Source of the DNA: Escherichia coli
Lineage (GTDB): Bacteria; Pseudomonadota; Gammaproteobacteria; Enterobacterales; Enterobacteriaceae
Assembly: GCF_003334335.1 (NCBI RefSeq)
Contig: NZ_QOWQ01000001.1
Reading direction: 5' to 3' (one strand)
DNA length: 64,000 nucleotides
Below, piece by piece: positions 31,642 to 62,688 of the stretch (position 1 is its first letter; the number at the start of each line of letters is the position of its first letter). The notes below the pieces were generated by a model, which made no database searches, was not told where the DNA came from, and saw only the letters and a program-made list of their open reading frames with translations. The position numbers and the translations under genes were made by a program.

Positions 31642-31653
31642 CTCATATTGATA
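31642..31653 (+). promoter_or_regulatory. Conserved 12-mer box CTCATATTGATA, copy 1 of 3
   Basis: Exact match to 56860-56871 (+) and 62677-62688 (-). The extended match to the 56852 copy is GTAATT(TT)CTCATATTGATAT. Confidence 0.4.
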
Positions 31654-31881
31654 TTTCATTAATCATTCTGGCATGTCGCACTCTCGCATTTAATCGTTTT
31701 TATCTGGATAGCGCTCTTTTGATCGGCAATGTTGAAATAATGAAAGCGGCATAGATTGAGGGGCAATAATTTGAACTCAGTCGCAAAATTATAATTAAAA
31801 CGGTCATGCTACCTAATATATGCCCGTTTATTGCATCGCGAAATTTGAGAAGACATAACTCATTAAATGAAAGGGATGCAA

Positions 31882-33801
31882 ATGAATAAGTTTATTGCTG
31901 CTGAAGCTGCGGAATGTATAGGCTGTCATGCTTGTGAAATTGCCTGTGCGGTGGCACACAATCAAGAAAACTGGCCGCTGAGTCACAGTGACTTTCGACC
32001 GCGTATCCACGTTGTAGGGAAAGGCCAGGCTGCGAATCCGGTGGCCTGCCATCACTGCAACAATGCCCCTTGCGTTACGGCTTGTCCGGTTAATGCTCTG
32101 ACTTTCCAGTCCGATAGCGTACAACTGGACGAGCAAAAATGTATTGGTTGTAAAAGATGCGCAATCGCTTGCCCCTTTGGCGTCGTTGAGATGGTCGATA
32201 CGATTGCGCAGAAATGCGACCTTTGTAACCAGCGCAGTTCCGGCACGCAAGCCTGTATTGAAGTTTGCCCAACACAGGCGTTACGACTGATGGACGATAA
32301 AGGGTTGCAGCAGATAAAGGTGGCCCGCCAGCGCAAAACGGCAGCAGGAAAAGCGTCATCAGACGCTCAGCCATCTCGCAGTGCAGCGTTGCTCCCCGTT
32401 AACTCGCGTAAAGGCGCAGATAAAATTTCAGCGAGTGAACGGAAAACCCACTTTGGCGAAATATATTGCGGGCTGGATCCACAACAAGCGACTTATGAGA
32501 GTGACCGCTGTGTTTATTGTGCCGAAAAAGCTAACTGCAACTGGCATTGCCCGCTGCATAACGCTATTCCGGATTACATCCGTCTGGTACAGGAAGGAAA
32601 GATTATTGAAGCGGCAGAACTTTGCCACCAGACCAGTTCCTTACCAGAAATTTGCGGCAGGGTATGTCCACAGGACCGTCTTTGTGAAGGCGCATGTACT
32701 TTGAAAGATCACTCGGGCGCAGTCTCTATCGGTAATCTGGAACGCTACATCACCGATACCGCGCTGGCGATGGGCTGGCGTCCCGATGTCAGCAAAGTTG
32801 TTCCCCGTAGCGAAAAAGTGGCGGTGATTGGCGCTGGGCCTGCAGGGTTAGGGTGTGCTGATATTCTGGCGCGCGCAGGAGTTCAGGTCGATGTCTTTGA
32901 TCGCCATCCAGAAATTGGCGGTATGCTGACTTTTGGCATTCCTCCTTTCAAACTCGATAAAACGGTATTAAGCCAGCGGCGAGAGATATTCACCGCAATG
33001 GGAATCGACTTTCATCTTAACTGTGAAATTGGCCGCGATATTACCTTTAGCGATTTAACTTCTGAATATGATGCAGTTTTCATCGGCGTGGGGACTTACG
33101 GGATGATGCGAGCAGATCTGCCGCATGAAGATGCGCCCGGTGTCATTCAGGCTCTACCGTTCCTGACTGCCCATACCCGCCAGCTCATGGGATTGCCGGA
33201 GTCTGAAGAGTATCCGCTGACGGACGTGGAAGGTAAGCGAGTCGTGGTATTGGGCGGTGGCGATACGACAATGGATTGTTTGCGGACTTCCATCCGCCTC
33301 AATGCCGCCAGCGTGACCTGCGCGTATCGTCGTGATGAAGTCAGTATGCCGGGCTCGCGCAAAGAGGTGGTTAATGCGCGCGAGGAAGGTGTCGAGTTTC
33401 AGTTCAATGTTCAACCGCAATATATCGCTTGTGACGAAGATGGGCGTTTAACTGCGGTGGGCCTGATTCGTACCGCCATGGGTGAGCCGGGGCCGGATGG
33501 TCGCCGTCGTCCTCGTCCGGTAGCGGGTTCAGAGTTTGAATTGCCCGCCGATGTTCTGATTATGGCCTTTGGTTTCCAGGCGCATGCCATGCCGTGGTTG
33601 CAGGGCAGCGGAATTAAACTCGATAAATGGGGCCTGATTCAAACCGGTGACGTCGGGTATTTACCTACCCAGACGCATCTGAAAAAAGTCTTTGCTGGTG
33701 GTGATGCAGTTCATGGCGCGGATCTGGTTGTCACTGCAATGGCCGCAGGAAGGCAGGCGGCGCGCGATATGTTAACTCTGTTTGATACGAAGGCATCGTG
33801 A
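31882..33801 (+). CDS. ygfT: Fused 4x[4Fe-4S] ferredoxin / GltD-like NAD(P)H flavin oxidoreductase (AegA paralogue)
   Basis: ORF 31867..33801 trimmed to [18 protein letters not shown] (639 aa). It has four CxxCxxCxxxCP-type motifs, then [13 protein letters not shown]...[15 protein letters not shown], then [14 protein letters not shown] and [13 protein letters not shown]. Confidence 0.92.
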
Positions 33802-34289
33802 TGAAATCGTTAATTATCGTTAATCCGGCTGACTGTATTGGCTGCCGTACTTGTGAAGTAGCCTGTGTGGTCGCTCACCCTTCAGAACAGGAGTTGAATG
33901 CCGATGTCTTTTTACCCCGGCTGAAGGTACAGCGACTGGACAGCATCAGTGCGCCGGTGATGTGCCATCAGTGTGAAAACGCCCCTTGTGTTGGCGCTTG
34001 CCCCGTGGGGGCGCTGACGATGGGCGAGCAGGTGGTGCAGACCAATTCTGCCCGTTGTATTGGCTGTCAGAGTTGCGTCAGTGCGTGCCCGTTTGGAATG
34101 ATCACCATTCAGTCGTTGCCGGGGGATACCCGACAACAAATTGTGAAATGCGATCTCTGTGAACAGCGGGAAGAGGGGCCAGCCTGCGTTGAATCTTGCC
34201 CAACACAGGCGCTGCAGTTGCTTACTGAAAGAGAACTCAGGCGAGTCCGCCAGCAGCGTATTGTTGCCAGCGGTGAGAATCCTCTCTGA
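33801..34289 (+). CDS. ygfS: 4x[4Fe-4S] ferredoxin-type protein (HydN-like)
   Basis: ATG 33801 overlaps the ygfT TGA (TGATG). The 162 aa are colinear with residues 1-160 of YgfT ([11 protein letters not shown] / [14 protein letters not shown] / [12 protein letters not shown] / CDLCEQ...CVESCP). Confidence 0.92.
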
Positions 34290-34295
34290 AAGAAA

Positions 34296-34319
34296 TCTCC
34301 GCGCTGAAAGGCGCGGAGA
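34296..34319. terminator. Bidirectional hairpin between convergent ygfS and ghxQ
   Basis: TCTCCGCGC-tgaaag-GCGCGGAGA. Confidence 0.65.
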
Positions 34320-34324
34320 ATCTA

Positions 34325-46825: not shown

Positions 46826-46841
46826 AGCAACAATCGCACCA
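46826..46841 (-). promoter_or_regulatory. Candidate sigma54 (-24/-12) promoter reading into ygfK-ssnA-ygfM-xdhD
   Basis: The minus strand reads GTGGTGC-GATTG-TTGCT. GG-N10-GC spacing is exact and the -12 TTGCT is perfect. The -12 GC is about 75 nt upstream of the ygfK ATG. Confidence 0.45.
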
Positions 46842-46904
46842 CTCTTGCCAGGTTTGGCGGGAAATATAAAAAAATGTGAGGCGGCTCGAAACTTAAGGGC
46901 TTTT

Positions 46905-46920
46905 TGTGAATGAACTCACA
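46905..46920. promoter_or_regulatory. Perfect CRP-consensus palindrome TGTGA-N6-TCACA upstream of ygfK
   Basis: TGTGAATGAACTCACA was read directly. It is centred about 70 bp upstream of the -24 element, with an A-tract (AAATATAAAAAAA, 46862-46874) in between. Confidence 0.5.
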
Positions 46921-47051
46921 GGTGCTAAATGAGAATTAAAATCACTCCTGAAAATTATTATTGCCAGCCCATTTATCAATTTTTCTCTTTTCTCAAAATC
47001 AGTGATTCCTTATCATTATGATAATGAGTGCCGGAAGGATTAAATATTTGA

Positions 47052-47755: not shown

Positions 47756-48526
47756 GTGAAAAGTATAGTTGACCCATCGGCATTAGTCATTGATTTAGGT
47801 GCGCAGAAACGTCCCACTGTGATTTCTGTTGTTGGTGCTGGGGGGAAAACCAGCTTGCTTTTTTGGCTGGCAGAACTGCTCCAGGCTAGCGGCAGGCGTG
47901 TGTTAATCACGACGACGACACATATGTTTATGCCAACGTCTCACTGGCCCGTGGTTTTCTGTCGTGATCCCGCCATGCTTCCTCATGCGTCTCTTACATC
48001 CCCCATTTCATTTTGTTTTCACAGCTGGAAAGCGAACCAGGGAAAAGTGCAGGGATTTACGCCAGAAGCGATTGATGCACTGGTGCAACGACCAGAGTGT
48101 GACGTAATTCTCATTGAAGCAGATGGCTCGCGTGGAATGCCGTTAAAAGCGCCTGATGAGCACGAACCTTGCATACCCAAAAGCAGTTGCTGCGTGATTG
48201 CTGTGATGGGAGGACATACTTTGGGCGCGAAAGTGAGCACAGAAAATGTCCATCGCTGGTCGCAGTTTGCTGATATTACCGGGTTAACACCTGATGCAAC
48301 CTTGCAACTGAGCGATCTCGTTGCGCTGGTTCGCCACCCTCAGGGGGCGTTTAAAAACGTACCGCAAGGTTGTCGGCGAGTCTGGTTCATTAACCGTTTT
48401 TCTCAATGTGAGAATGCGATTGCACAAAGCGAGCTCCTTCAACCGCTGCAACAACACGACGTAGAGGCAATCTGGCTGGGCGATATACAAGAACATCCTG
48501 CAATCGCGCGCAGATTTGTGAATTAG
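47756..48526 (+). CDS. yqeC: P-loop accessory protein YqeC (family linked to selenium-dependent Mo hydroxylase maturation)
   Basis: 256-aa ORF with a GTG start and Walker A VVGAGGKTSLL. Confidence 0.85.
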   Translation: MKSIVDPSALVIDLGAQKRPTVISVVGAGGKTSLLFWLAELLQASGRRVLITTTTHMFMPTSHWPVVFCRDPAMLPHASLTSPISFCFHSWKANQGKVQGFTPEAIDALVQRPECDVILIEADGSRGMPLKAPDEHEPCIPKSSCCVIAVMGGHTLGAKVSTENVHRWSQFADITGLTPDATLQLSDLVALVRHPQGAFKNVPQGCRRVWFINRFSQCENAIAQSELLQPLQQHDVEAIWLGDIQEHPAIARRFVN

Positions 48527-50357: not shown

Positions 50358-50386
50358 TCAACAAAGCGCACTTACTTGACAATCTT

Positions 50387-50414: not shown

Positions 50415-50419
50415 TTAAA

Positions 50420-51352
50420 TTACTGACAAATCACCGTTCCTGTTTTGCCTTCAATCCCTTCTTTCGCTTTGCTCAATACGGTAATCAGTGCTTCACGACC
50501 TGCGCGAGAGCGAGCAAACGAGGCGGCAGCTTCCACTTTAGGCAGCATAGAACCTTTCGCAAAATGACCTTCTTCGATAAAGCGTTCAGCATCACTTAAT
50601 GACAGGCGATCGAGCCACTGTTCATTCTCTTTACCGAAGTTAATGGCCACTTTTTCTACCGCAGTCAGAATGATCAGCATATCGGCATCAATCATTTCTG
50701 CTAAACGGGCGCTGGCCCAGTCTTTATCGATAACCGCGCTGGCACCACGCAGATGGTTACCTTCACGAATAACAGGGATACCACCACCGCCAACGGTGAT
50801 CACCACCTGACCTGCATCTACCAGAGCTTTAACCGTTTCTTTTTCAATGATATCAACCGGTTTTGGCGAGGCAACAACACGGCGATAGCCGCGACCAGCA
50901 TCTTCTTTCAGAGTGTAACCCTGTTTTGTCAGTTGCTCTGCTTCTTGCTCGGTAAAGAACGAACCGATCGGCTTGGTCGGGTTGAGGAATGCCGGATCGT
51001 TAGCGTCGACTTCGACCTGAGTAACCAGCGTTGCTACAGGTTTATTAATGCCCCGAGAAAGCAGTTCTTCTCTTAAAGCGTTTTGTAGATCGTAACCAAT
51101 ATAACCCTGGCTTAATGCAACACAGACAGACATCGGCAGCATTGGCGAGTGCGCTTCAGTTTTTGCGGCAGCTTCAAAGGCCTGGTTAATCATGCCCACC
51201 TGCGGCCCGTTACCATGAGTGACGATAACTTCATGTCCCTGGGCAATTAAATCAACAATTGCCTGAGAAGTAATTTTTACCGCTTTCATTTGCCCGGCCA
51301 GGTCATCGCCCAGCGCATTCCCGCCCAGGGCGAGAACAATTTTCTTACTCAT
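50420..51352 (-). CDS. yqeA: Carbamate kinase-like protein
   Basis: 310-aa ORF with IVLALGGNAL and VTHGNGPQVG motifs. Confidence 0.92.
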   Translation of the reverse strand: MSKKIVLALGGNALGDDLAGQMKAVKITSQAIVDLIAQGHEVIVTHGNGPQVGMINQAFEAAAKTEAHSPMLPMSVCVALSQGYIGYDLQNALREELLSRGINKPVATLVTQVEVDANDPAFLNPTKPIGSFFTEQEAEQLTKQGYTLKEDAGRGYRRVVASPKPVDIIEKETVKALVDAGQVVITVGGGGIPVIREGNHLRGASAVIDKDWASARLAEMIDADMLIILTAVEKVAINFGKENEQWLDRLSLSDAERFIEEGHFAKGSMLPKVEAAASFARSRAGREALITVLSKAKEGIEGKTGTVICQ

Positions 51353-51399
51353 TTTTCCTCACTCATCATTCTTGATTGTGTATAGATCCCTGGCAGTGG

Positions 51400-52785: not shown

Positions 52786-52793
52786 AGCAAACT

Positions 52794-52820
52794 CCAAAAA
52801 CCCTCCGGCGAACCGGAGGG
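52794..52820 (-). terminator. Intrinsic-terminator-like hairpin inside the ygeY-hyuA junction
   Basis: The minus strand reads CCCTCCGG-ttcg-CCGGAGGG followed by TTTTTGGAGTTTGCT-ATG. The U-run runs straight into the hyuA SD. Confidence 0.55.
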
Positions 52821-52837
52821 GAATAAGTGAAGAGTAA

Positions 52838-54049
52838 TTACTCTGTTGCCAGCCAGCTTAACGGGATTGCAGCGTACATCGCGGCACAGGTCACCAGGTG
52901 AGATTTCCAGGTTTTTTCGTTAGGTGCATGCGCTTCAGGTTCTTTACCCGGGCCAAAGCCGATCACCGGAATGCCGTGACGGCCCATGATAGATACGCCG
53001 TTAGTTGAGAAGGTCCACTTATCAACAACCGGCGCTTTGCCAAACAGCCCTTCGTAGGCATTCACCAGTGCTTTAACGGTGAAGTGATCTTCTTCCACTT
53101 TCCAGGTCGGGAAGTAGCATTCGGTTGGGTAAACCAGGCCAGTCCAGGACGGACGGTCGTAGTTGTACATAGAAACAACCGCGTTAGCTTTCTGTACTGC
53201 AGGCAGGGCGCGGATTTCGTCCAGCGCGCCTTCCCAGGTTTCGCCCCAGGTCAGACGACGGTCGATTGAAACTGCGCAGCTGTCTGCTACAGCGCAACGG
53301 CTTGGGGATGTGAAGAAGATTTCAGAAACGGTGAGGGTGCCTTTGCCGAGGAATTCGTCATAACCCAGACGTTGGGAGAGTTCTTGTAATTCGCCAAGAA
53401 TCGGACCCATTTTGAAAATGGCGTTATCACCGCGTTCTGGTGCAGAACCGTGGCAGCTAACACCCTGAACATCAATACGAATTTCCATACGACCGCGCTG
53501 ACCACGGTATACCTGGCAGTCGGTTGGTTCGGTACTGACCACAAATTCCGGGCGAATGCCGGATTGTTCAATAATGTACTGCCAGCACAGACCGTCGCAG
53601 TCTTCTTCCTGCACCGTACCGGTAACCAGCAGGGTATATTCATCTTCCAGACCGAGGTCTTTAATGATTTTACCGGCATAAACCATAGAGGCCATGCCAC
53701 CTTCCTGGTCGGAAGTACCGCGACCACCAATCAGTTCATCAGTTTCCATGCCTTCGTACGGATCGAAGTCCCAGTTTTTGATGTTGCCAATGCCGACGGT
53801 ATCGATATGAGCGTCCATTGCCACCAGACGCGGGCCGTGGCCGATATAACCGAGAACGTTGCCCATCGGGTCGATTTCAACTTTATCGAAGCCGACTTTT
53901 TCCATCTCTTCTTTAATACGATGTACTACGCGTTTCTCGTCGCAGCTTTCACTGGGAATAGCAACCATGTCGCGCAGGAAGCGAGTCATATCCGCCTGGT
54001 AATCTTTTGCTTTTTCAAGAATCAGTTTGAATGGAATATTCTTAGCCAT
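52838..54049 (-). CDS. ygeY: M20-family metallo-peptidase/deacylase (N-carbamoyl- or N-acyl-amino-acid amidohydrolase-like)
   Basis: 403-aa ORF with MDAHIDTVG and [10 protein letters not shown] metal/catalytic motifs. Confidence 0.9.
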
Positions 54050-54106
54050 TATTTTTCTCCAGATTTTTTACTCCCCGTTTTGCAGGGAGCAGTTCCAATA
54101 GGGTGA

Positions 54107-55303
54107 TTAAGGTGCTACAGCGTGTTTGCCTTCCCAGACAACTTCGCGGTAGTGCTTCACGTCGGTGTCGCCTTCAGTGCTGATAACCAGCACCACGGCA
54201 TCTTTGTTCAGCGCCAGTTTTTCCATCAGGCTTTGACGTTGCGGGTGATAATGAACCGCTGCGAGAACGCCCAAACCGACAGCGCCGGATTCACCGGAGA
54301 TGATGCGCGGGTCGTTGCCGTACGGATTACCCAGCACGCGCATACCTAATGCGGCAACGCTGTCCTGGCAGGAGATGAATTGGGTGGCGCAGTTACGTAG
54401 GATTTCCCAGCCCAGCGGGTTAGGTTCGCCACAGGCCAGGCCTGCCATGATGGTGGCCATATCACCGCCAACGTTGACGATGTCGCCTTTGACGCCGGAG
54501 CGATAAATACAGTCAGCTTTGTCAGGTTCAACAATAATGCTGTGCAGATTTTGCGGGCTATAGACGTCGACCAGATAACCCAGCACACCACCGGCCATTG
54601 CTCCGACACCGGCTTGCAGCAGAACGTGCGTCGGGGTTACGCCCATTTCACGCATTTGCTCGACGGCTTCATCTGCCAGGGTTGCGTAGCCTTGCATGAT
54701 CCAGGTTGGGATTTTGGTGTAACCTTCCCATGCCGTGTCCTGTACCACTTCCCAGCCGTGCTGCTGCGCGTGTTGCATGGTCAGGCGAACGGTATCGTCA
54801 TAGTTCATATCCGTGACGATGCACTCGGCACCGAGGTTCAGAATGGCGTCAACGCGTTCCTGAGCAGAACCTTTCGGCATGTAAATCACCGCATTCTGTC
54901 CGAGTTGCTGTGCTGCCCACGCCACACCGCGCCCGTGGTTGCCGTCGGTGGTGGTCGCGAAAGTCATTTTTTCGCCGATGGCATTTTTCAGGTGCTCAAA
55001 TGACAGCGTTTCGATATCAAGATGATATTTTTCACACAATAATTGAGCGATGGCGTACGCACCGCCAAGCATTTTGAAGGCGTTCAGACCGAATCGTTTT
55101 GATTCGTCTTTGACGAGAATTTTCTTCACACCAAAAAGGTTTGCGAGATCGTCCAGCGCACAAAGCGGTGTTGGGCGATAACCAGCTATTTTCTGGTGGA
55201 ACTGGCGCGCCAGTTTGGCCTGGCTTTGCGAAAAGAGCGGTGATGTTTCGCCGTTGAAAAATTTGTTATCGGCGATATCAATCTTCAATGAGAAAACGGA
55301 CAT
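54107..55303 (-). CDS. dpaL: 2,3-diaminopropionate ammonia-lyase (PLP)
   Basis: 398-aa ORF with PLP lysine context FGLNAFKMLGG. Confidence 0.93.
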   Translation of the reverse strand: MSVFSLKIDIADNKFFNGETSPLFSQSQAKLARQFHQKIAGYRPTPLCALDDLANLFGVKKILVKDESKRFGLNAFKMLGGAYAIAQLLCEKYHLDIETLSFEHLKNAIGEKMTFATTTDGNHGRGVAWAAQQLGQNAVIYMPKGSAQERVDAILNLGAECIVTDMNYDDTVRLTMQHAQQHGWEVVQDTAWEGYTKIPTWIMQGYATLADEAVEQMREMGVTPTHVLLQAGVGAMAGGVLGYLVDVYSPQNLHSIIVEPDKADCIYRSGVKGDIVNVGGDMATIMAGLACGEPNPLGWEILRNCATQFISCQDSVAALGMRVLGNPYGNDPRIISGESGAVGLGVLAAVHYHPQRQSLMEKLALNKDAVVLVISTEGDTDVKHYREVVWEGKHAVAP

Positions 55304-55360
55304 ATCCTATCCTTTTGGCCTCTGGAAATAGAGGGCCGACCAGCTGATCGGCCCGAGGGG

Positions 55361-56551
55361 TTATTTCACGCGTTCTTGCGCTTCTTTCAGCAGTTGCTCG
55401 AGCAGTGCACCTGGTTTGGCGTATTTACGGGACAGGATCATCGCGGCGATGATATAAGGCTTCCAGCTGGCTTCTTTGTAGGTAGCGATACGGTATTTTT
55501 CGAATACGCCTTCAGTCACTTCACCTTCTTTACAGGATACGCCGCTGATATCAGCTGGCAGGCAGTGCATGTACAGGGCTTCGCCATCACGGGTCAGTTC
55601 CATCATCTCTTCAGTACAATGCCAGTCTTTGTGTTGCGCGTTCTGTGCCAGACACTGTTTTTCCAGTGCTTTTAAGCCTTCGTGATCGTTCGCACGCAGC
55701 AATTCAGTACGCTCTTCCATCACTTTGTAAGGTGCCCATGACTTCGGATAAACGATGTCTGCGTCTTTGAAGGCTTCTTCCATGCTGGTGACCTGACGGA
55801 AGCTACCACCGGAGGCTTTAGCATTGTTTTTCGCCACTTCAACCACATCCGGGATCAGGTCGTAGCCTTCCGGATGGGCCAGGGTGACATCCATACCGAA
55901 GCGAGTCATCAGACCGATGATGCCTTGTGGTACAGAGAGCGGTTTGCCATAGCTTGGAGAGTAGGCCCAGGTCATGGCGATTTTTTTACCTTTCAGGTTT
56001 TCCAGTGAACCAAAGTGTTCACGTAACCACGCGAGGTCAGCCATTGACTGAGTCGGGTGGTCAATATCGCATTGCAGGTTCACTAAAGCCGGACGCTGTG
56101 GCAGTACACCCTGCTTGTAACCGTCATCAAGTGCAGCGCCAACTTCACGCATATAGGCGTTGCCTGCGCCCAGATACATATCGTCGCGAATACCAATAGC
56201 GTCGGCGCAGAAGGAGATCATATTGGCGGTTTCACGCACGGTTTCGCCGTGAGCGATTTGTGATTTGCCTTCGTCGAGATCTTGTTGTGCAAGGCCGAGC
56301 AGGTTAAGCGCGGAAGCATAAGAGAAGCGGGTACGGGTGGAGTTGTCGCGGAATACGGAAATACCTAATCCACTATTAAAGACTTTGGTTGAGATGTTTT
56401 CAGCACGCAGTGCTTTTAATGCTGCGGCAACGTCCAGTACTTGTTTCAGTTCATCTGGCGTCTGTTCCCACGTTAACAAAAAATCTTTCTCGTGAAGGTG
56501 AGAGGTCAGCGAATTGATATCCTTAATCAGCTCATTAACAGTTTTCATCAT
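55361..56551 (-). CDS. ygeW: Transcarbamylase-family protein whose physiological substrate I cannot assign
   Basis: 396-aa ORF with carbamoyl-phosphate motifs STRTR (NSTRTRFS), HPTQ (IDHPTQSMADL) and HCLP (MHCLPA). Confidence 0.92.
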   Translation of the reverse strand: MMKTVNELIKDINSLTSHLHEKDFLLTWEQTPDELKQVLDVAAALKALRAENISTKVFNSGLGISVFRDNSTRTRFSYASALNLLGLAQQDLDEGKSQIAHGETVRETANMISFCADAIGIRDDMYLGAGNAYMREVGAALDDGYKQGVLPQRPALVNLQCDIDHPTQSMADLAWLREHFGSLENLKGKKIAMTWAYSPSYGKPLSVPQGIIGLMTRFGMDVTLAHPEGYDLIPDVVEVAKNNAKASGGSFRQVTSMEEAFKDADIVYPKSWAPYKVMEERTELLRANDHEGLKALEKQCLAQNAQHKDWHCTEEMMELTRDGEALYMHCLPADISGVSCKEGEVTEGVFEKYRIATYKEASWKPYIIAAMILSRKYAKPGALLEQLLKEAQERVK

Positions 56552-56641
56552 AAAGTCCCGGTAGTGGAATGACAGGCAAAGTGGTTTATTTCACTGTGAC
56601 TTGCCAAAGTGATTGGTGTTTTCACAGCTATACCTGGGACT

Positions 56642-56657
56642 AACAATAAGTGTGCCA
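56642..56657 (-). promoter_or_regulatory. Candidate sigma54 (-24/-12) promoter reading into ygeW-dpaL-ygeY-hyuA-yqeA
   Basis: The minus strand reads CTGGCAC-ACTTA-TTGTT. The -24 element is perfect and spacing is exact, but the -12 element is GT instead of GC. The -12 element is about 95 nt upstream of the ygeW ATG. Confidence 0.4.
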
Positions 56658-56700
56658 GAATTATCCGCGCGGCTGCAAAAGACTAATTTGACGGATAATG

Positions 56701-56716
56701 TGTGGGGTTGATCACA
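56701..56716. promoter_or_regulatory. CRP-like palindrome TGTGG-N6-TCACA upstream of the ygeW promoter candidate
   Basis: TGTGGGGTTGATCACA was read directly; 9/10 half-site positions match. Confidence 0.4.
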
Positions 56717-56748
56717 AATTGATGCCAGCTTCTGGTTGTTTGTAAAAT

Positions 56749-56764
56749 ACGAAAACGTTTGGCT
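56749..56764. promoter_or_regulatory. PurR-box-like palindrome in the ygeW/ygeV divergent region
   Basis: ACGAAAACGTTTGGCT matches ACGCAAACGTTTGCGT at 13/16; the core AAACGTTT is intact. Confidence 0.4.
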
Positions 56765-56859
56765 TTTTTTATCGCGTTATTTATTTGCTGCTAAGTATCA
56801 GAAATAAGATAAAGGGGCAGGCTATCTCTCTTCAGTTTGATAAACTCACCGCCGTAATT

Positions 56860-56871
56860 CTCATATTGATA
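56860..56871 (+). promoter_or_regulatory. Conserved 12-mer box CTCATATTGATA, copy 2 of 3
   Basis: Exact match to 31642-31653 and 62677-62688. It is followed by a TGATAT...TGATATC direct repeat. Confidence 0.4.
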
Positions 56872-57026
56872 TAGAAATGTGATATCTCTTCCATAATTTC
56901 ATTAGAAAATGATAAAAATCTTATGTTTTTATCAAAGCCAATTTCGCCTGAGTTAATATCATCATGATCTGTGAACCATCAACGTCTTCAATGATCGACT
57001 TTTAAGTAAGTCTGGAAGGTAAAGCT

Positions 57027-58805
57027 ATGGAGCTTGCTACTACGCAGTCAGTATTGATGCAAATTCAACCGACAATTCAGCGTTTTGCCAGAATGCTTGC
57101 CAGCGTTTTGCAGCTTGAGGTTGAGATCGTTGATGAAAACTTGTGTCGCGTTGCCGGAACGGGCGCGTATGGGAAGTTTCTTGGTCGCCAGTTGAGCGGC
57201 AACTCACGCCTGCTCCGCCACGTCCTGGAAACGAAAACTGAAAAAGTTGTGACACAGTCTCGCTTCGATCCCCTTTGCGAAGGTTGCGATAGTAAAGAAA
57301 ATTGCCGCGAAAAAGCATTTCTGGGTACGCCTGTCATTTTACAGGATCGTTGTGTTGGGGTGATAAGTTTGATTGCCGTTACCCACGAGCAACAAGAGCA
57401 TATCAGTGATAATTTACGCGAATTTTCTGATTATGTTCGCCATATATCCACCATTTTTGTTTCGAAACTTCTGGAGGATCAGGGGCCAGGAGATAACATC
57501 AGTAAAATATTTGCGACCATGATCGATAATATGGATCAGGGCGTATTAGTTGTAGATGATGAAAATCGGGTTCAGTTTGTTAATCAGACTGCCTTAAAAA
57601 CACTTGGTGTTGTGCAAAATAATATTATTGGGAAACCTATCCGTTTCAGACCATTAACATTTGAGAGTAATTTTACCCATGGACATATGCAGCATATTGT
57701 TTCATGGGACGATAAAAGTGAATTAATCATTGGTCAATTGCATAACATTCAGGGCCGACAATTATTTTTAATGGCGTTTCACCAATCGCATACCAGTTTT
57801 TCTGTAGCAAATGCACCTGATGAACCGCATATTGAACAATTGGTTGGCGAGTGCCGTGTTATGCGGCAATTAAAACGACTCATTAGCCGTATTGCACCCA
57901 GCCCATCCAGCGTTATGGTGGTTGGTGAAAGCGGCACGGGTAAAGAAGTCGTCGCCCGTGCAATCCATAAGTTGAGCGGAAGACGGAATAAACCCTTTAT
58001 TGCTATCAACTGTGCCGCGATTCCGGAGCAGCTTCTGGAGAGCGAACTGTTCGGTTATGTTAAAGGTGCATTTACTGGCGCTTCTGCCAACGGTAAAACA
58101 GGGTTGATTCAGGCGGCGAATACGGGCACGCTGTTTCTCGATGAAATAGGTGATATGCCATTAATGTTGCAGGCTAAATTACTGCGCGCTATTGAGGCAC
58201 GTGAAATTCTGCCGATTGGTGCCAGTAGCCCAATACAAGTCGACATTCGCATCATTTCTGCAACTAATCAGAATTTGGCCCAGTTCATTGCCGAAGGTAA
58301 ATTCCGCGAAGATCTCTTCTACCGACTTAATGTTATCCCGATAACTCTGCCACCGCTGCGTGAACGTCAGGAAGATATTGAACTATTGGTGCATTACTTT
58401 TTACATCTGCATACCCGTCGTCTGGGATCGGTTTATCCTGGCATTGCTCCCGATGTCGTCGAAATATTGCGTAAGCATCGTTGGCCCGGAAACCTGCGCG
58501 AGTTAAGCAATTTGATGGAATATCTGGTTAACGTGGTTCCTTCAGGTGAAGTTATCGACAGCACGCTATTGCCGCCAAATCTGCTGAATAATGGCACAAC
58601 GGAGCAAAGTGATGTAACAGAGGTCAGTGAGGCGCACCTGTCACTCGATGATGCGGGCGGCACGGCGCTGGAGGAGATGGAAAAGCAAATGATCCGCGAG
58701 GCGCTTTCACGTCATAACAGCAAGAAGCAAGTTGCTGATGAACTGGGCATCGGCATTGCTACGCTCTATCGCAAGATTAAGAAATATGAGTTGTTAAACA
58801 CATAA
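57027..58805 (+). CDS. ygeV: Sigma54-dependent transcriptional activator (bacterial enhancer-binding protein)
   Basis: 592-aa ORF with Walker A GESGTGKE, sigma54-contact loop GAFTGA, Fis-type HTH VADELGIGIATLYRKIKKY and an N-terminal sensor + PAS-like region. Confidence 0.95.
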   Translation: MELATTQSVLMQIQPTIQRFARMLASVLQLEVEIVDENLCRVAGTGAYGKFLGRQLSGNSRLLRHVLETKTEKVVTQSRFDPLCEGCDSKENCREKAFLGTPVILQDRCVGVISLIAVTHEQQEHISDNLREFSDYVRHISTIFVSKLLEDQGPGDNISKIFATMIDNMDQGVLVVDDENRVQFVNQTALKTLGVVQNNIIGKPIRFRPLTFESNFTHGHMQHIVSWDDKSELIIGQLHNIQGRQLFLMAFHQSHTSFSVANAPDEPHIEQLVGECRVMRQLKRLISRIAPSPSSVMVVGESGTGKEVVARAIHKLSGRRNKPFIAINCAAIPEQLLESELFGYVKGAFTGASANGKTGLIQAANTGTLFLDEIGDMPLMLQAKLLRAIEAREILPIGASSPIQVDIRIISATNQNLAQFIAEGKFREDLFYRLNVIPITLPPLRERQEDIELLVHYFLHLHTRRLGSVYPGIAPDVVEILRKHRWPGNLRELSNLMEYLVNVVPSGEVIDSTLLPPNLLNNGTTEQSDVTEVSEAHLSLDDAGGTALEEMEKQMIREALSRHNSKKQVADELGIGIATLYRKIKKYELLNT

Positions 58806-58814
58806 CCTCAGTGA

Positions 58815-58838
58815 ATCCGGCCTGAATTCAGGCCGGAT
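58815..58838. terminator. Perfect 24-nt palindrome between convergent ygeV and xdhC
   Basis: ATCCGGCCTGAA|TTCAGGCCGGAT followed by ATCCTTTTA. Confidence 0.7.
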
Positions 58839-58844
58839 ATCCTT

Positions 58845-59324
58845 TTACTTCGTTTTCTCGCAATCCAGAACTGTATTTACAATCATCTGATACCCCGTGC
58901 AGCGACAAAGATTTCCCGCCAGTCCGCGACGAATTTCCGTAATGGTTAATGGCTTCTCGCGTGGTTTCGCCAGCATTGCCGTGGTAGCCATAATCAGGCC
59001 AGGCGTACAAAACCCGCACTGCACTGCGCCGGATTTCGCATAAGCCTGCTGAACATGAGAAAGTTTTCCGCCTTTCGCTTCACCTTCCAGCGTGCGGATC
59101 TCTTTTCCTTCAGCCCAGGCGGCAAGGTATAAGCAACTGTCTATTGCTGTGCCGTCGACCAACACCGTACAGGCACCACATTCACCCACGCAGCACCCTT
59201 GTTTGACACTTAGCAGTCCTTGTTCGCGGAGTAATTCCGAGAGCGGCGTGCCTGGTGCGGCGTGAAGCTGAAAAGGCATCCCGTTAATGGTGCATTCGAT
59301 GGTAATTGTTTCGCTGTGATTCAT
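58845..59324 (-). CDS. xdhC: Xanthine dehydrogenase [2Fe-2S] subunit
   Basis: 159-aa ORF with both cluster motifs CCVGECGAC...C and CGFCTPG...CRCTGY. Confidence 0.95.
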
Positions 59325-60199
59325 TGCAATTTTCCCCCCGCCGCGGCGACGGCTTCGCTAATCACTTTTTTGGTCATCGTCTGGATGAGATGCAGACGAA
59401 ACTCTTTACTGGCCCGCCATGAAGAACGCGGGGCGACATCTTGCAGGACAGATTCGCTGATAGCTTCCAGCGTTTGCAGGTTTAATGGCGCATTTTGTGC
59501 AGTCTGTTCGGCATGTTGGCAGCGAATCGGCGTTGGCGCGGCAACACCAAATGCCAGGCGTAATTCGCTGAAATTGCCGTTATCCAGTCGGCAATGTGCG
59601 GCGCAGCCAATCGTTGAAATATCCATTGCGTCGCGCATGGCATATTTAAAATGCGCGCTGCCCGCGTGTTCTTTCGGCTGTGGCGGAAAATGAAAGGCGA
59701 CGAGGATTTCGTCATGCTCAAGAGACACTTTGCCCGGCCCGGTGTGAAAGCCATTAATCGGGACGAAACGAACACCGCGCGGGGAGTGGATCTCCAGTTT
59801 CGCGTCATAAATTAGCGTTGGCGTGGCAGAATCTGCGCTGGTGGCACCGTTGCAAATATTTCCACCGTAGGTAGCGACGTTACGGATCTGCGGTCCAGCA
59901 ATGGACGTGGCCGCAGCACATAACGCCGGGAGATGACGTTGAGTTATAGGATCTTCTATTAGCTGGGTAAATGTCGTTGCAGAGCCGATACGTAGCGAGC
60001 CATCTTCCGCCAGCGTAATTCCCCGCAGCTCCGCCAGATTATGAATATCAACAATATGGCGATAACGGTCATTGTGATGGTGGAGCTGAATCAGTACGTC
60101 AGTGCCACCGGCGAGCAGTTTGGCCTGCGGGTTGTCAGCCAGCAGGTTGATGGCATCGGCAAGGGTTGCTGCGCGATGGTAAGAAGCAAAATCAAACAT
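59321..60199 (-). CDS. xdhB: Xanthine dehydrogenase FAD-binding subunit
   Basis: 292-aa ORF with LLAGGTDVL; 4-nt overlap with xdhC. Confidence 0.95.
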
Positions 60200-60209
60200 G
60201 ATGTTATCC

Positions 60210-62468
60210 TCAAATCAATCCTGCCAGATGGAACTCTTCATATAACCGTTTTGGCGTCAGCGGCAGTGTATTGATTGCAACACCGGTAGCCATCTTCACC
60301 GCGTTACGAATAGCAGCGGCAACAGGAATTATTGGTGGCTCACCCAGTGACTTATGTCCGTATGCGGATTGCGGCTCATTGATTTCGACGAACGCGCTTT
60401 CCAGTTGTGGCAGATCCGGCATGGTCGGCATTTTGTAATCCAGCAGATTGGGGTTACGGACCACGCCGCTTTTAGCATCGATGATCATCTCTTCAAATAG
60501 CGCCCAGCCAATGCCCATTCCCATTCCGCCGTGTACCTGACCTTCTGCCAGCAGTGGATTAAGAATATGCCCTGAATCATGAACGTTGAGGATGCGGTTG
60601 ATGGTGACTTTGCACAGCGCAATATCGACCGTCAGATCAACAAAGGTACAGCCAAACGCCGGTGGGTTAGTGGTGGTTTTGATGGAGCTTTCAGCAGAGA
60701 GCTGCCCGCCGCGTTCAGGGTGGTAGAAAGCGTCCATCGCCAAATCTTTTAACGACATTAACGGCTCTTCCGGTCGTTCAACCAGCACGATATGGCCTTT
60801 TATCAGGGTCAGATTCATCGCTGACTGATGTAGCATGACTGCGGCGTGAGCGATGATTTTCTCTTTTAATAATAGTGCCGCACTGCGCAGCGCAGGCGCG
60901 GCAACATAGCTCTGGCGTGAGGCAAATGCGCCGGGATCGAACGGCGTAACGTCGGTATCTTGAGTTGAAATAACGCGAACGTCGCTGACCGGAACCCCCA
61001 CGGTTTCTGCCACCATTTGCGAGAAGACGGTGTCGGCACCCTGACCGATTTCCGTCGCGCCGCTTTGCACGTTGATGGTTCCATCCTGATTCATCAGAAG
61101 GCGCGCGCCTGCTATTTCTACGCCGACAGGCCAGGTGTTAGAGGTGTAGCTAAAACAGGCGACGCCAACGCCGCGGCGCAAATTGCCTTGCTGGTTCTGG
61201 CATTCTGCACGGCGTTTTTCCCATTCAAAGATTTTCCGGCCTTTTTCAAGACACTCCGGCAACCCTGCGCTGTAAATACGTTTGCCCGTGAGCGGATTAG
61301 CATCTCCTTCGCGGGCGGCGTTGCGTAAACGAATTTCAACAGGATCAATACCTAACGCTGTCGCGGCGTCATCAAGCATAGACTCAACGGCAAATACGAC
61401 TTGTGGCGCGCCATAACCACGCATCGCACCAGCCGAGGGGAGGTTGGTATAGCAGGTCTTTGAACTGTAAGCGTAGGCACAACGAGGATAAAGGTAAGCG
61501 ACTTTATTCCCCCCCGCAGAAGCGATGGAGTGCCCGTGAGATGCATAAGCGCCGGTGTTAGACAGAACATCCAGACTATAACCTTTCAATGTTCCGTCGC
61601 GGTTCACGCCCATTTGCCCGTCAATGGTAAAAGCGTGGCGGGTACGGGTTGCGAGGAAACACTCTTCACGGCTAAGGGAAACTTTCACCGGAATGCCGCC
61701 AAGCTTGCTGGTCAGGAATGCCGCCATTGGCTCTTCCAGTACATCCTGTTTATTACCAAAACCGCCACCGACAAATGGTTTGATGACTCGTACGCATGAC
61801 CAGGGAATATCCAGCGCCTGACCAACCACGCGGCGAACAATGTGCGGGATCTGGGTGCTGGAAACGATGGTAATTCGCGAGTCATCCTCCATCCACGCCA
61901 GCGATGTTACGCTTTCCATGTGACAATGTTGAATAACGGGGGTCTGATAGTGCCCCTGTACCTGGTAGTCGGCGGCATCGATTGTTTGTTGGACATTACC
62001 CGTCGACATCGTGCTTTGTTTCAGTAAATTGCCACCGTTATGGATTGGTGCAGCGTCTTCTGCCAGCGCCGCTTCTGGCGTGGTGATAACGGGTAATTCT
62101 TGCCACTCAATGCTGACCAATTGCGCCGCTTTTTCTGCCGTGAGTTCATCGCGGGCCACGACGATGGCAACGGCGTCACCATGATGACGAACATGGCGAG
62201 TTAGCAGTGCGCGATCGGCGGTATCGCGCTTGTTTTCGTCAAGTGTCCAGGCATGCCCAGCTGTAGCGAATGGAATATCAGGCACATCTTCCCAGGTAAA
62301 AATCGCCAGTACGCCCGGCAAACTTCTGGCTTGTTCATCATTAATACTTACGGCATAACCATGTGCGATAGGGCTACGTACATATTTCGCATAACACATG
62401 CCCGCCATAACATAATCGTCAGTATATCGTGCCCGCCCGGTGACCTTAGCAATGGCATCGACGCGCAT
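60210..62468 (-). CDS. xdhA: Xanthine dehydrogenase molybdenum-binding subunit
   Basis: ORF 60210..62507. ATG 62468 (MRVDAIAKVTGRARYTDDY) gives the remembered 752 aa. The upstream ATG 62507 has the better SD (see findings). Confidence 0.92.
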   Translation of the reverse strand: MRVDAIAKVTGRARYTDDYVMAGMCYAKYVRSPIAHGYAVSINDEQARSLPGVLAIFTWEDVPDIPFATAGHAWTLDENKRDTADRALLTRHVRHHGDAVAIVVARDELTAEKAAQLVSIEWQELPVITTPEAALAEDAAPIHNGGNLLKQSTMSTGNVQQTIDAADYQVQGHYQTPVIQHCHMESVTSLAWMEDDSRITIVSSTQIPHIVRRVVGQALDIPWSCVRVIKPFVGGGFGNKQDVLEEPMAAFLTSKLGGIPVKVSLSREECFLATRTRHAFTIDGQMGVNRDGTLKGYSLDVLSNTGAYASHGHSIASAGGNKVAYLYPRCAYAYSSKTCYTNLPSAGAMRGYGAPQVVFAVESMLDDAATALGIDPVEIRLRNAAREGDANPLTGKRIYSAGLPECLEKGRKIFEWEKRRAECQNQQGNLRRGVGVACFSYTSNTWPVGVEIAGARLLMNQDGTINVQSGATEIGQGADTVFSQMVAETVGVPVSDVRVISTQDTDVTPFDPGAFASRQSYVAAPALRSAALLLKEKIIAHAAVMLHQSAMNLTLIKGHIVLVERPEEPLMSLKDLAMDAFYHPERGGQLSAESSIKTTTNPPAFGCTFVDLTVDIALCKVTINRILNVHDSGHILNPLLAEGQVHGGMGMGIGWALFEEMIIDAKSGVVRNPNLLDYKMPTMPDLPQLESAFVEINEPQSAYGHKSLGEPPIIPVAAAIRNAVKMATGVAINTLPLTPKRLYEEFHLAGLI

Positions 62469-62562
62469 GCATGATTCACCCGTAGCGGTTGCTTCCCGCG
62501 CTTCCATAGAAATCCCCTCGATTTGAACATTTGGTTCTTATGGCAAAGATTTAGTCTAAGCA

Positions 62563-62578
62563 GGCAAGATTTACGCCA
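62563..62578 (-). promoter_or_regulatory. Candidate sigma54 (-24/-12) promoter reading into xdhABC
   Basis: The minus strand reads CTGGCGT-AAATC-TTGCC. GG-N10-GC spacing is exact and TGGC/TTGC are conserved. The -12 GC is about 55 nt (ATG 62507) or 95 nt (ATG 62468) upstream of the start. Confidence 0.4.
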
Positions 62579-62676
62579 GAAACGACGATAAGCGTTAGGG
62601 GAGGTAGGAAGTGTGATGACGTTAAAAAAACACAGATATGATACGAAACAGGACTCTGAATAGGGGCAGTGATACG

Positions 62677-62688
62677 TATCAATATGAG
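62677..62688 (-). promoter_or_regulatory. Conserved 12-mer box CTCATATTGATA, copy 3 of 3 (read on the minus strand)
   Basis: The plus strand reads TATCAATATGAG. It overlaps the perfect 12-bp palindrome TGATACGTATCA (62670-62681) and is centred about 105 bp upstream of the -24 element of the xdhA candidate promoter. Confidence 0.4.

What the first reader, a model, noticed from the sequence alone, without database searches (positions are those of the whole stretch)
31642..62688. Exact 12-mer CTCATATTGATA shared by three of the long intergenic regions of the purine block
Seen: CTCATATTGATA occurs at 31642-31653 (+, uacT/ygfT spacer), 56860-56871 (+, ygeW/ygeV spacer) and 62677-62688 (-, xdhA/ygeR spacer). 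The first two copies extend to GTAATT(TT)CTCATATTGATAT. The third overlaps the perfect palindrome TGATACGTATCA.

The expected number of chance occurrences of a given 12-mer in 128,000 strand positions is about 0.008. A looser relative (TATGATAATGAG inside TTATCATTATGATAA, 47010-47029) lies upstream of ygfK.

In each case the box lies roughly 100-230 bp upstream of a GG-N10-GC promoter candidate.

Inference: this is the binding site (UAS) of a common regulator, most simply YgeV. The box also contains the IHF core WATCAA but lacks the TTR part. I scanned the intergenic regions by eye, not the whole window exhaustively.
Basis: seen in the sequence. Interest (0 to 1): 0.65.

Follow-up and report, generated by a model that had tools for sequence, protein, structure and literature searches.

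The report
Enhancer box of the YgeV regulon
The repeated 12-mer is real: it is the core of a conserved 13-15 bp palindromic activator site (T-TMTCA-N3-TGAKA-A) upstream of the sigma-54 promoters of E. coli's anaerobic purine/uric-acid genes, most likely bound by the orphan regulator YgeV, and it matches a motif already predicted by computer for the clostridial counterpart 'DioR'.

Summary
In detail: three exact copies against 0.02 expected. None occurs in 300 kb of other K-12 DNA.

The 12-mer is one imperfect version of a palindrome, TMTCA-N3-TGAKA.

Boxes lie 106-209 bp upstream of four published sigma-54 ChIP-seq sites: xdhA, ygeW, ygfK and ygfT.

They are conserved islands in the orthologous spacers of other Enterobacterales. 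That holds for ygeW/ygeV in 9 of 9 genera, ygfK in 7 of 7, and a 20-21 bp-phased pair at xdhA in 5 of 6.

The same box recurs next to YgeV homologues and uric-acid genes in Vibrionaceae, Shewanella and Firmicutes. The consensus has 0 hits in 1.2 Mb of unrelated bEBP loci.

Nie et al. 2019 predicted the same motif for the clostridial EBP group DioR but never linked it to YgeV.

YgeV binding is therefore well supported by association but untested biochemically. IHF, FNR, Fur and dispersed-repeat readings fail.

Verdict: a new member of a known kind, of moderate interest.

Side finding: a box inside yqeC, downstream of the validated yqeB promoter, is conserved at the DNA level despite amino-acid changes.

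The parts
31641..31653 (.). Box TCTCATATTGATA in the uacT/ygfT spacer (12-mer copy 1). It is 174 bp upstream of the ygfT sigma-54 site and 118 bp from a candidate uacT sigma-54 promoter.
   Evidence: 20.1 bits with a PWM trained on non-E. coli sites; invariant in 4 E. coli lineages.
56859..56871 (.). Box TCTCATATTGATA in the ygeW/ygeV spacer (12-mer copy 2), 209 bp upstream of the ygeW sigma-54 site.
   Evidence: (20.1 bits). A strong box (>=19.7 bits) sits at the aligned position in 9 of 9 other Enterobacterales genera, and the 15-mer is identical in 6.
56830..56842 (.). Weaker box CTTCAGTTTGATA, 29 bp from the main ygeW box. The core yCA-N3-TGATAA is conserved across genera.
   Evidence: (8.5 bits).
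56957..56969 (.). Weak box TATCATCATGATC, 70 bp upstream of the ygeV start. Only the TATCAT half is conserved. It could serve autoregulation, which is speculative.
   Evidence: (9.1 bits).
62677..62689 (.). Box TATCAATATGAGT (12-mer copy 3, read on the + strand), 106 bp upstream of the xdhA sigma-54 site.
   Evidence: 10.1 bits; conserved as gTATCAwwaTGAg in 6 of 6 genera.
62698..62710 (.). Partner box AATCAATGTGATA, 21 bp from copy 3 and 127 bp upstream of the xdhA sigma-54 site.
   Evidence: (12.5 bits). Five of six genera score a partner box 20-21 bp away. In the sixth, Citrobacter, the partner aligns but falls below the 7-bit threshold.
47011..47023 (.). Perfect palindrome TATCATTATGATA in the ygfK/mocA spacer, 177 bp upstream of the ygfK sigma-54 site. 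It is the best match in the window.
   Evidence: 23.5 bits; 7 of 7 genera.
46989..46998 (.). Conserved half-site TTTCTCAAAA, about 21 bp from the ygfK box.
48401..48413 (.). Box TCTCAATGTGAGA inside the 3' end of yqeC. It lies 248 bp downstream of the validated intragenic sigma-54 promoter for yqeB and 167 bp upstream of the yqeB ATG.
   Evidence: (16.9 bits). It is conserved in 8 of 8 genera at the DNA level while the amino acids change.
31819..31835 (+). Sigma-54 site of ygfT (TATGCCCGTTTATTGCA).
   Evidence: Bonocora 2015 ChIP-seq, located.
56642..56658 (-). Sigma-54 promoter of ygeW (CTGGCACACTTATTGTT).
   Evidence: invariant core across 10 genera.
62563..62579 (-). Sigma-54 promoter of xdhA (CTGGCGTAAATCTTGCC).
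46826..46842 (-). Sigma-54 promoter of ygfK (GTGGTGCGATTGTTGCT).
48157..48173 (+). Validated intragenic sigma-54 promoter in yqeC that drives yqeB (TGAGCACGAACCTTGCA).
31515..31531 (-). Candidate sigma-54 promoter for uacT (CTGGCACTCCACGAGCA). It is about 70-85 bp upstream of the uacT ATG and is not in the ChIP-seq list.
57027..58805 (+). ygeV, the only bEBP gene of the block. Domains: PAS, sigma-54 AAA+ and a Fis-type HTH_8 at residues 548-587.

Best explanation
The 12-mer is the core of the upstream activating sequence (enhancer) of the YgeV regulon. The real unit is a 13-15 bp dyad, T-T(A/C)TCA-N3(A/T-rich)-TGA(T/G)A-A.

Proposed mechanism. A dimer of the C-terminal Fis-type HTH of YgeV binds the dyad. 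Bound YgeV oligomerises through its AAA+ domain. It loops over roughly 100-210 bp to the closed sigma-54 holoenzyme complexes at PxdhA, PygeW, PygfK and PygfT, and probably PuacT and the intragenic PyqeC. ATP hydrolysis then drives open-complex formation.

Shown here: the motif, its statistics, its positions relative to published sigma-54 sites, its conservation, and its co-occurrence with YgeV/DioR homologues.

Inferred: that YgeV is the binding protein, and that binding activates transcription.
For: 1. Statistics. Three exact copies against 0.02 expected. The consensus TMTCA-N3-TGAKA has 0 hits in 1.21 Mb of 74 unrelated bEBP loci, 5 in this window and 10 in six YgeV-homologue loci. TATCA-N3-TGATA is the top palindrome among all 5-N(0-10)-5 palindromes in nine upstream regions.

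2. Cross-validation. A PWM trained only on non-E. coli sites ranks 47010, 56858 and 31640 as the top three of 64 kb. The maximum in 300 kb of other K-12 DNA is 16.9 bits, against 20.1-23.5 bits here.

3. Position. Boxes lie 106-209 bp upstream of four sigma-54 ChIP-seq sites. Those operons form the published YgeV iModulon, and reduced ygfT expression in a ygeV mutant is reported.

4. Phylogenetic footprints in Citrobacter, Kluyvera, Edwardsiella, Serratia, Trabulsiella, Pseudocitrobacter, Atlantibacter, Salmonella and Pluralibacter. Within E. coli, 0 of 65 positions in the main boxes vary, against 79 of 1626 spacer columns.

5. Other phyla. The same boxes, usually 2-4 with a pair 18-21 bp apart, lie 60-300 bp upstream of TGGCA-N6-TTGC promoters next to YgeV homologues and ygeW/ygeX/ygeY/xdhA/ygfK/permease genes. 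This holds in Photobacterium, Vibrio, Shewanella, Tissierellaceae, Clostridium and metagenomic contigs.

6. Prior prediction. The motif is identical to the computationally predicted DioR UAS of Clostridiales.

7. DNA-binding domain. The HTH segment LGIGIATLYRKI is identical in E. coli YgeV and the homologues in L001-L003.
Against: - There are no binding or mutational data.
- The box type is not exclusive to YgeV/DioR. A CdsR-like EBP (L005) and response-regulator-type bEBPs in metagenomes use near-identical boxes. Only about 17 of 120 sampled paired-box loci sit next to bEBP or uric-acid genes.
- ygfT/uacT has a single box, and its spacer could not be footprinted outside E. coli.
- The xdhA boxes score at background level individually (10-12.5 bits).
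- The iModulon member ybiY and the uric-acid gene aegA have no box.
- K-12 was sampled (300 kb), not scanned whole.
Confidence: 0.8

Rival explanations
1. The box is bound by a different transcription factor, either another E. coli bEBP with a similar Fis-type HTH or an unrelated dimeric regulator. YgeV would then act elsewhere or indirectly.
For: Near-identical boxes serve other bEBP subfamilies: a CdsR-like EBP in L005 and REC-domain bEBPs in L104, L127, L150 and L179. Most paired-box loci in the metagenome sample have no YgeV homologue on the contig.
Against: YgeV is the only bEBP gene in the block. Its orthologues keep synteny with the boxes from Firmicutes to Enterobacterales. The operons downstream of the boxes are the YgeV iModulon. 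I recognise no characterised E. coli regulator motif of the form TATCA-N3-TGATA; this rests on my own knowledge and no motif database was queried.
Confidence: 0.08
2. The box is an IHF site that bends DNA between enhancer and promoter.
For: The reverse complement contains TATCAA, the WATCAA core.
Against: None of the four spacers holds an exact WATCAA-N4-TTR match. The conserved unit is a symmetric dyad, unlike the asymmetric IHF consensus. It lies at enhancer distance rather than between an enhancer and the promoter. It is also conserved in Firmicutes, which lack IHF by general knowledge.
Confidence: 0.03
3. Copy 3 is really an FNR/CRP-family site (GTGATACGTATCAA, 9 of 10 matches to TTGAT-N4-ATCAA), and the shared 12-mer is coincidental.
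For. The pathway is anaerobic.
Against: Copies 1 and 2 lack the second FNR half-site. The left arm of the E. coli palindrome is not conserved in six other genera, whereas TATCA-N3-TGAG and its partner box are.
Confidence: 0.04
4. The element is a chance match, or a dispersed repeat or duplication remnant, with no function.
For: The sequence is A/T-rich and lies in A/T-rich spacers. Copies 1 and 2 share 19-21 bp.
Against: Shuffles expect 0.02 copies. Local alignment scores for the three spacer pairs that share the exact 12-mer are at shuffle level, so nothing beyond the box is shared; the one pair slightly above shuffle, ygfK vs xdhA, is a weak gapped alignment. There are 0 copies in 300 kb of K-12. 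The box is conserved in diverged orthologous spacers. The contrast case is the ygeX intragenic palindrome, which really is a coding by-product and is not conserved.
Confidence: 0.02

Closest known systems
DioR upstream activating sequence, predicted for Clostridiales by Nie, Dong & Yang 2019 (BMC Genomics 20:565, PMC6615313)
   Same: - Same dyad. Their listed sites include ATTTATCAAAGTGATAAGT, TATTATCATTTTGATAATA and ATTCTCGAATTGAGAATA.
- Same position upstream of TTGGCAT-N5-TTGCT promoters.
- Same target genes: dpaL (ygeX), pyrC-like (hyuA), argE-like (ygeY), ygeW-ygfK-ssnA-ygeY, xdhABC, yqeC-ygfJ-yqeB and pbuX.
   Different: - That work is purely computational and restricted to Clostridiales.
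- It gives the regulon's function as 'Unknown' and never mentions YgeV or Proteobacteria (one search finds no such terms).
- In E. coli the regulon is split over six promoters, with mostly one strong box per promoter. CRP boxes sit between the box and the promoter at ygeW and ygfK, with only a half-match at xdhA.
- I did not compare YgeV directly with CBO2889 or CD3186.
NtrC (GlnG) enhancer at glnAp2 and other Fis-HTH bEBP UAS
   Same: Dyad sites for a dimeric Fis-type HTH lie about 100-150 bp upstream of a -24/-12 promoter. They are often paired on the same helical face and are expected to act by looping. Established knowledge.
   Different: - The sequence differs: TGCACCA-N3-TGGTGCA for NtrC.
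- YgeV has a PAS-containing N-terminus instead of a receiver domain.
- The half-sites here are closer together, 8 bp centre to centre.
CdsR2 UAS of C. difficile cdsB (Nie et al. 2019)
   Same: The boxes are almost the same: TCTCAAAATGATA and TCTCATTTTGAGA. L005 shows three such boxes phased at 21 bp.
   Different: It controls a cysteine desulfidase gene (PF03313), not purine genes. This shows the box type is shared by sister EBP groups.

Membership tests
bEBP upstream activating sequence (sigma-54 enhancer) | Lies roughly 70-300 bp upstream of a -24/-12 sigma-54 promoter | tested here: met
   Distances to the ChIP-seq-mapped sites of xdhA, ygfT, ygfK and ygeW are 106/127, 174, 177 and 180/209 bp. 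The same arrangement is seen in 11 foreign loci.
bEBP upstream activating sequence (sigma-54 enhancer) | Dyad symmetry suited to a dimeric HTH, usually in two or more copies | tested here: met
   The palindrome is TMTCA-N3-TGAKA. Pairs lie 21 bp apart at xdhA, and a box plus conserved half-site lie 21 bp apart at ygfK. At ygeW there are 2-3 boxes. At ygfT/uacT only one box is detectable.
bEBP upstream activating sequence (sigma-54 enhancer) | A cognate bEBP with a DNA-binding domain is encoded and co-inherited with the sites | tested here: met
   YgeV has Sigma54_activat and HTH_8 domains. Synteny of ygeV with the boxes holds in 11 gammaproteobacterial loci and several Firmicutes loci.
bEBP upstream activating sequence (sigma-54 enhancer) | The bEBP binds the site, and activation needs both the site and the bEBP | not testable with these tools
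   This needs EMSA, footprinting, ChIP and reporter mutagenesis. The only indirect data are the iModulon and the reported drop in ygfT expression in a ygeV mutant.
DioR-type UAS (Nie et al. 2019) | Consensus (A/T)TT(A/C)TCA-N3-TGA(T/G)AA(A/T) | tested here: met
   E. coli boxes TTATCATTATGATAA and TTCTCATATTGATAT, compared with the listed DioR sites.
DioR-type UAS (Nie et al. 2019) | Regulates the selenium-dependent purine/uric-acid cluster (dpaL, ygeW, ygfK, ssnA, ygeY, xdhABC, yqeB, permeases) | tested here: met
   Boxes lie upstream of ygeWXY-hyuA, ygfK-ssnA-ygfM-xdhD, xdhABC and ygfT/uacT, and inside yqeC before yqeB.
DioR-type UAS (Nie et al. 2019) | The regulator is an orthologue of DioR | tested here: inconclusive
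   YgeV is 39-40% identical over its full length to clostridial and Tissierellaceae homologues that sit beside the same genes and boxes. The named DioR proteins (CBO2889, CD3186) were not available for direct comparison.
IHF binding site | WATCAA-N4-TTR | tested here: not met
   None of the four spacers has an exact match, and the TTR part is missing at every box.
FNR binding site | TTGAT-N4-ATCAA, conserved | tested here: not met
   Only copy 3 fits (9 of 10), and its left arm is not conserved in six genera.
Fur box | At least about 14-15 of 19 matches to GATAATGATAATCATTATC | tested here: not met
   The best match is 13 of 19 at ygfK, within the range seen in random 320-bp windows.
Dispersed intergenic repeat (REP/BIME-like) | Many genomic copies with similarity extending beyond a short core | tested here: not met
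   There are 0 copies in 300 kb of K-12. The spacers that share the 12-mer show no alignment above shuffle level beyond the box. No Rfam family overlaps the boxes.

The most novel reading that the evidence does not exclude
The box inside the yqeC coding sequence (48401-48413) may be a working YgeV enhancer placed about 250 bp downstream of the validated intragenic sigma-54 promoter for yqeB. The regulator would then constrain the amino-acid sequence of YqeC: S/Y and E/D substitutions follow the motif's allowed A/C and T/G positions.

In addition, the single box at 31641 may serve two divergent sigma-54 promoters, ygfT and uacT.

More broadly, the whole regulon (regulator, box and sigma-54 promoters) may have moved as one unit between Firmicutes and Proteobacteria.
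Probability: 0.4. Interest if true: 0.6.

Novelty: new member of a known kind. Interest (0 to 1): 0.5.

Why it matters
YgeV (also called IsrR) is one of the last E. coli sigma-54 activators without a defined DNA site. It controls the anaerobic purine/uric-acid pathway, which is now being studied and engineered as a gut route for urate disposal in gout and hyperuricaemia.

A defined box gives:
- exact targets for EMSA, ChIP and promoter mutagenesis;
- a link between E. coli and the clostridial 'DioR' prediction;
- a handle for rewiring the pathway without destroying its native control.

Tried and rejected
Searches that failed:
- The search for related loci with YgeV on genome contigs was swamped by generic AAA+ patterns. 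Only six full-length relatives came back and no Enterobacteriaceae.
- The search for homologous proteins with E. coli YgeV returned only E. coli variants. Querying with the Photobacterium orthologue solved this.

Regulon extension:
- No box lies upstream of ybiYW or aegA. rcsB was not checked.

Rejected readings:
- The ygeX intragenic perfect palindrome (55015) is a by-product of the coding sequence KYHLDI. Synonymous TAC codons destroy it in most genera.
- No convincing sigma-54 promoter lies between the yqeC box and yqeB. The validated promoter lies upstream of the box instead.
- The GTAATT extension of copies 1 and 2 and the palindrome TGATACGTATCA are not conserved.
- The Fur, IHF and FNR readings are rejected.
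- Spacer-to-spacer alignments give nothing beyond the box.

Other results:
- The metagenome reverse scan shows that box pairs are enriched near sigma-54 promoters: 16 of 37 strong sites against about 1.8 expected. The pairs are not specific to YgeV.
Full report
**Context**

The window is the E. coli K-12 purine/uric-acid block in reverse orientation: uacT, ygfT ... ygfK, mocA, yqeCB, yqeA-hyuA-ygeYXW, ygeV, xdhCBA, ygeR. The ORF map and RefSeq annotation of the same region in other strains agree on this.

**1. The observation**

- CTCATATTGATA occurs exactly three times, at 31642 (+), 56860 (+) and 62677 (-). Dinucleotide shuffles expect 0.02.
- The only one-mismatch relatives are intragenic.
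- The stated extensions, the palindrome TGATACGTATCA (62670-62681) and the ygfK relative (47010-47024) are all present.

**2. What the element is**

- Near-copies of the 12-mer turned up beside YgeV homologues from other phyla. This showed that the 12-mer is one imperfect version of a palindrome.
- Scanning for TATCA-N3-TGATA found, in the window:
  - a perfect site upstream of ygfK (47011);
  - the two TCTCATATTGATA copies (31641, 56859);
  - two weaker boxes in the ygeW/ygeV spacer (56830, 56957);
  - a 21-bp-spaced pair upstream of xdhA (62677, 62698).
- Allowing A/C at position 2 and T/G at position 12 gives TMTCA-N3-TGAKA. This consensus has 0 exact hits in 1.21 Mb of 74 unrelated bEBP loci, 5 in this 64-kb window, and 10 in six YgeV-homologue loci.
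- I enumerated all 5-N(0-10)-5 palindromes in nine regions upstream of sigma-54 promoters. TATCA-N3-TGATA ranks first, present in 5 of 9 regions. The next best is present in 2 of 9.
- A PWM trained only on non-E. coli sites ranks 47010 (23.5 bits), 56858 (20.1) and 31640 (20.1) as the top three positions of the window. The xdhA boxes score 12.5 and 10.1.
- In 300 kb of other K-12 DNA there is no exact 12-mer and nothing above 16.9 bits.

**3. Position**

- Bonocora et al. 2015 mapped sigma-54 by ChIP-seq at xdhA, ygeW, ygfK and ygfT (PMC4591121). I located those sequences in the window.
- Distances from box centre to the -24 G are:

| Promoter | Distance (bp) |
|---|---|
| xdhA | 106 and 127 |
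| ygeW | 180, 209 and 307 |
| ygfK | 177 |
| ygfT | 174 |

- A candidate -24/-12 element for uacT (31515-31531) lies 118 bp on the other side of the 31641 box.
[quoted passage not shown] That paper also cites reduced ygfT expression in a ygeV mutant.

**4. Conservation in orthologous spacers**

- I fetched nine Enterobacterales loci, using the Photobacterium orthologue as the query to avoid the flood of E. coli sequences: Citrobacter, Kluyvera, Edwardsiella, Serratia, Trabulsiella, Pseudocitrobacter, Atlantibacter, Salmonella and Pluralibacter. I also fetched Shewanella and Vibrio.
- In the ygeW/ygeV spacer:
  - a box of 19.7 bits or more sits at the aligned position in 9 of 9 genera;
  - the 15-mer TTCTCATATTGATAT is identical in six;
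  - the spacer is otherwise only patchily alignable;
  - the box lies about 200 bp from the invariant sigma-54 core.
- Upstream of ygfK, a box of about 21-23 bits is present in 7 of 7 genera, with a conserved TTTCTCAAAA half-site about 21 bp away.
- Upstream of xdhA:
  - the box corresponding to the 12-mer is conserved in 6 of 6 genera;
  - a partner box 20-21 bp away scores in five;
  - in Citrobacter the partner aligns but falls below the 7-bit threshold.
- The pattern at xdhA is gTATCAwwwTGAG ... CTCAwwwTGATA. The left arm of the E. coli palindrome TGATACGTATCA is not conserved there.
- Among four E. coli lineages up to 3.6% apart, 79 of 1626 spacer columns vary but 0 of the 65 main-box positions do (P about 0.04).

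**5. Other phyla and prior art**

- YgeV homologues of 33-57% identity lie beside ygeW/X/Y, hyuA, xdhABC, ygfK or xanthine/urate permease genes. They carry the same boxes: 2-4 per promoter, typically a pair 18-21 bp apart, 60-300 bp upstream of strong TGGCA-N6-TTGC promoters. This holds in Photobacterium, Tissierellaceae, Clostridium and several metagenomic contigs.
- The HTH segment LGIGIATLYRKI is identical in E. coli YgeV and the homologues in L001-L003.
- The literature search showed that Nie, Dong & Yang 2019 had already predicted this motif computationally as the UAS of a clostridial EBP group they named DioR. Its regulon is dpaL-pyrC-argE, ygeW-ygfK-ssnA-ygeY, xdhABC, yqeB and pbuX, with function listed as 'Unknown'.
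- That paper does not mention YgeV, E. coli or purines. Among the 51 papers that mention YgeV, none of the seven I opened gives a binding site.

**6. Specificity in the reverse direction**

- I scanned metagenomes for two boxes 5-30 bp apart. The scan returned a capped sample of 120 loci.
- About 17 lie next to bEBP genes or uric-acid genes. One is a mocA-boxes-sigma-54-ygfK locus with 67% YgfK identity.
- Of 37 strong sigma-54 motifs in these loci, 16 lie 40-350 bp downstream of a box in the correct orientation. About 1.8 are expected.
- The box is not exclusive to YgeV/DioR. A CdsR-like EBP controlling a PF03313 gene (L005) and REC-domain bEBPs use nearly the same box.
- The protein assignment in E. 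coli therefore rests on synteny, the iModulon and the absence of another bEBP gene in the block. It does not rest on the motif alone.

**7. Rival explanations**

- IHF: no WATCAA-N4-TTR match in any spacer, and the element is a dyad.
- FNR: only copy 3 fits, and its extra arm is not conserved.
- Fur: best match 13 of 19, which is background level.
- Dispersed repeat or duplication: the spacers that share the 12-mer have nothing in common beyond the box, and no Rfam family overlaps it.

**8. Side finding**

- A fifth strong box (TTCTCAATGTGAGAA, 48400-48414) lies inside the 3' end of yqeC.
- It is conserved in 8 of 8 Enterobacterales with yqeC. The encoded residues change (S/Y, Q/H, C/S/N/F, E/D, and F/L/I/V before it) only in ways the motif allows. 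Synonymous positions that matter to the motif are fixed.
- Bonocora et al. validated an intragenic sigma-54 promoter in yqeC that is required for YqeB. It lies at 48157-48173, so this box is about 250 bp downstream of the promoter it would serve.
- By contrast, the perfect palindrome inside ygeX (55015) is destroyed by synonymous changes in most genera. It is a coding by-product.

**Verdict**

- The element is the E. coli instance of a DioR-type bEBP enhancer. Most likely YgeV binds it, but that binding has not been shown.
- It is a new member of a known kind.
- It gives the YgeV regulon precise, testable cis-elements in a pathway of current biomedical interest.

**Limits**

- There is no biochemistry.
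- K-12 background was sampled, not scanned whole.
- The uacT/ygfT spacer was not footprinted outside E. coli.
- The metagenome-derived sites were selected by the pattern itself. Only their centres, flanks and contexts count as independent evidence.

Noticed in passing
window 48400-48414 (inside yqeC); promoter at 48157-48173: A strong box, TTCTCAATGTGAGAA, lies within the yqeC coding sequence. It is conserved in 8 of 8 Enterobacterales at the DNA level while the encoded amino acids change in motif-compatible ways. It sits about 250 bp downstream of the validated intragenic sigma-54 promoter for yqeB.
   Followed up: partly
window 31515-31531 (-): CTGGCACTCCACGAGCA is a GG-N10-GC candidate sigma-54 promoter about 70-85 bp upstream of the uacT ATG and 118 bp from the 31641 box. 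It is not in the published ChIP-seq list, although uacT belongs to the YgeV iModulon.
   Followed up: partly
window 46905-46920; 56701-56716; 62612-62627: CRP-type boxes lie between the box and the sigma-54 promoter. The ygfK one is perfect (TGTGAATGAACTCACA) and conserved in seven genera. The ygeW one is TGTGGGGTTGATCACA, also conserved; a 2025 paper calls the ygeV-ygeW site 'the native Crp-binding site'. At xdhA there is only a half-match.
   Followed up: partly
window 56749-56764: ACGAAAACGTTTGGCT is a PurR-like box (core AAACGTTT) in the ygeW/ygeV spacer. It is recognisably conserved in Citrobacter, Trabulsiella, Atlantibacter, Salmonella and Pluralibacter.
   Followed up: partly
window 46929-46947: The block ATGAGAATTAAAATCACTC upstream of ygfK is nearly invariant across eight genera. 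Its function is unknown and it is not explained by the box, CRP or sigma-54.
   Followed up: no
window 31584-31600: A perfect 8-1-8 palindrome, TCGTGGTTAAACCACGA, lies between the 31641 box and the candidate uacT promoter. It is invariant in four E. coli lineages.
   Followed up: no
window 62669-62682: GTGATACGTATCAA matches the FNR consensus at 9 of 10 positions and overlaps 12-mer copy 3. Its left arm is specific to E. coli.
   Followed up: yes
window 55015-55027 (inside ygeX): The perfect TATCAAGATGATA palindrome is a by-product of the coding sequence KYHLDI. Synonymous changes destroy it in most genera.
   Followed up: yes
L104, L127, L150, L179 (metagenome contigs): Response-regulator-type bEBP genes are followed immediately by two boxes. 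In L127 a TGGCACGCATCTTGCT promoter follows, and near-identical promoters flank box pairs in L099 and L146. A second bEBP family therefore uses the same box type. L005 (CdsR-like) has three boxes at exact 21-bp spacing before a PF03313 gene.
   Followed up: partly
L101, L103, L110, L129, L151 (metagenome contigs): Long tandem arrays contain the box at spacings of about 26 or 52 bp, with 17-82 copies per contig. Their nature is unknown.
   Followed up: no
L004 11750-11830 (Desulfotomaculum MAG): The YgeV homologue here has no TATCA box. It has TCTCAA / TCGAGA / TTGAGA repeats upstream of TGGTACAAAATTTGCT, a variant half-site like the C. difficile DioR sites.
   Followed up: partly
window 6647-6830 (-), 5848-5998 (-), 20341-20418 (-), 63756-63826 (+): Rfam hits outside the finding: 6S RNA, a SIB RNA, naRNA4 and a tRNA.
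   Followed up: no
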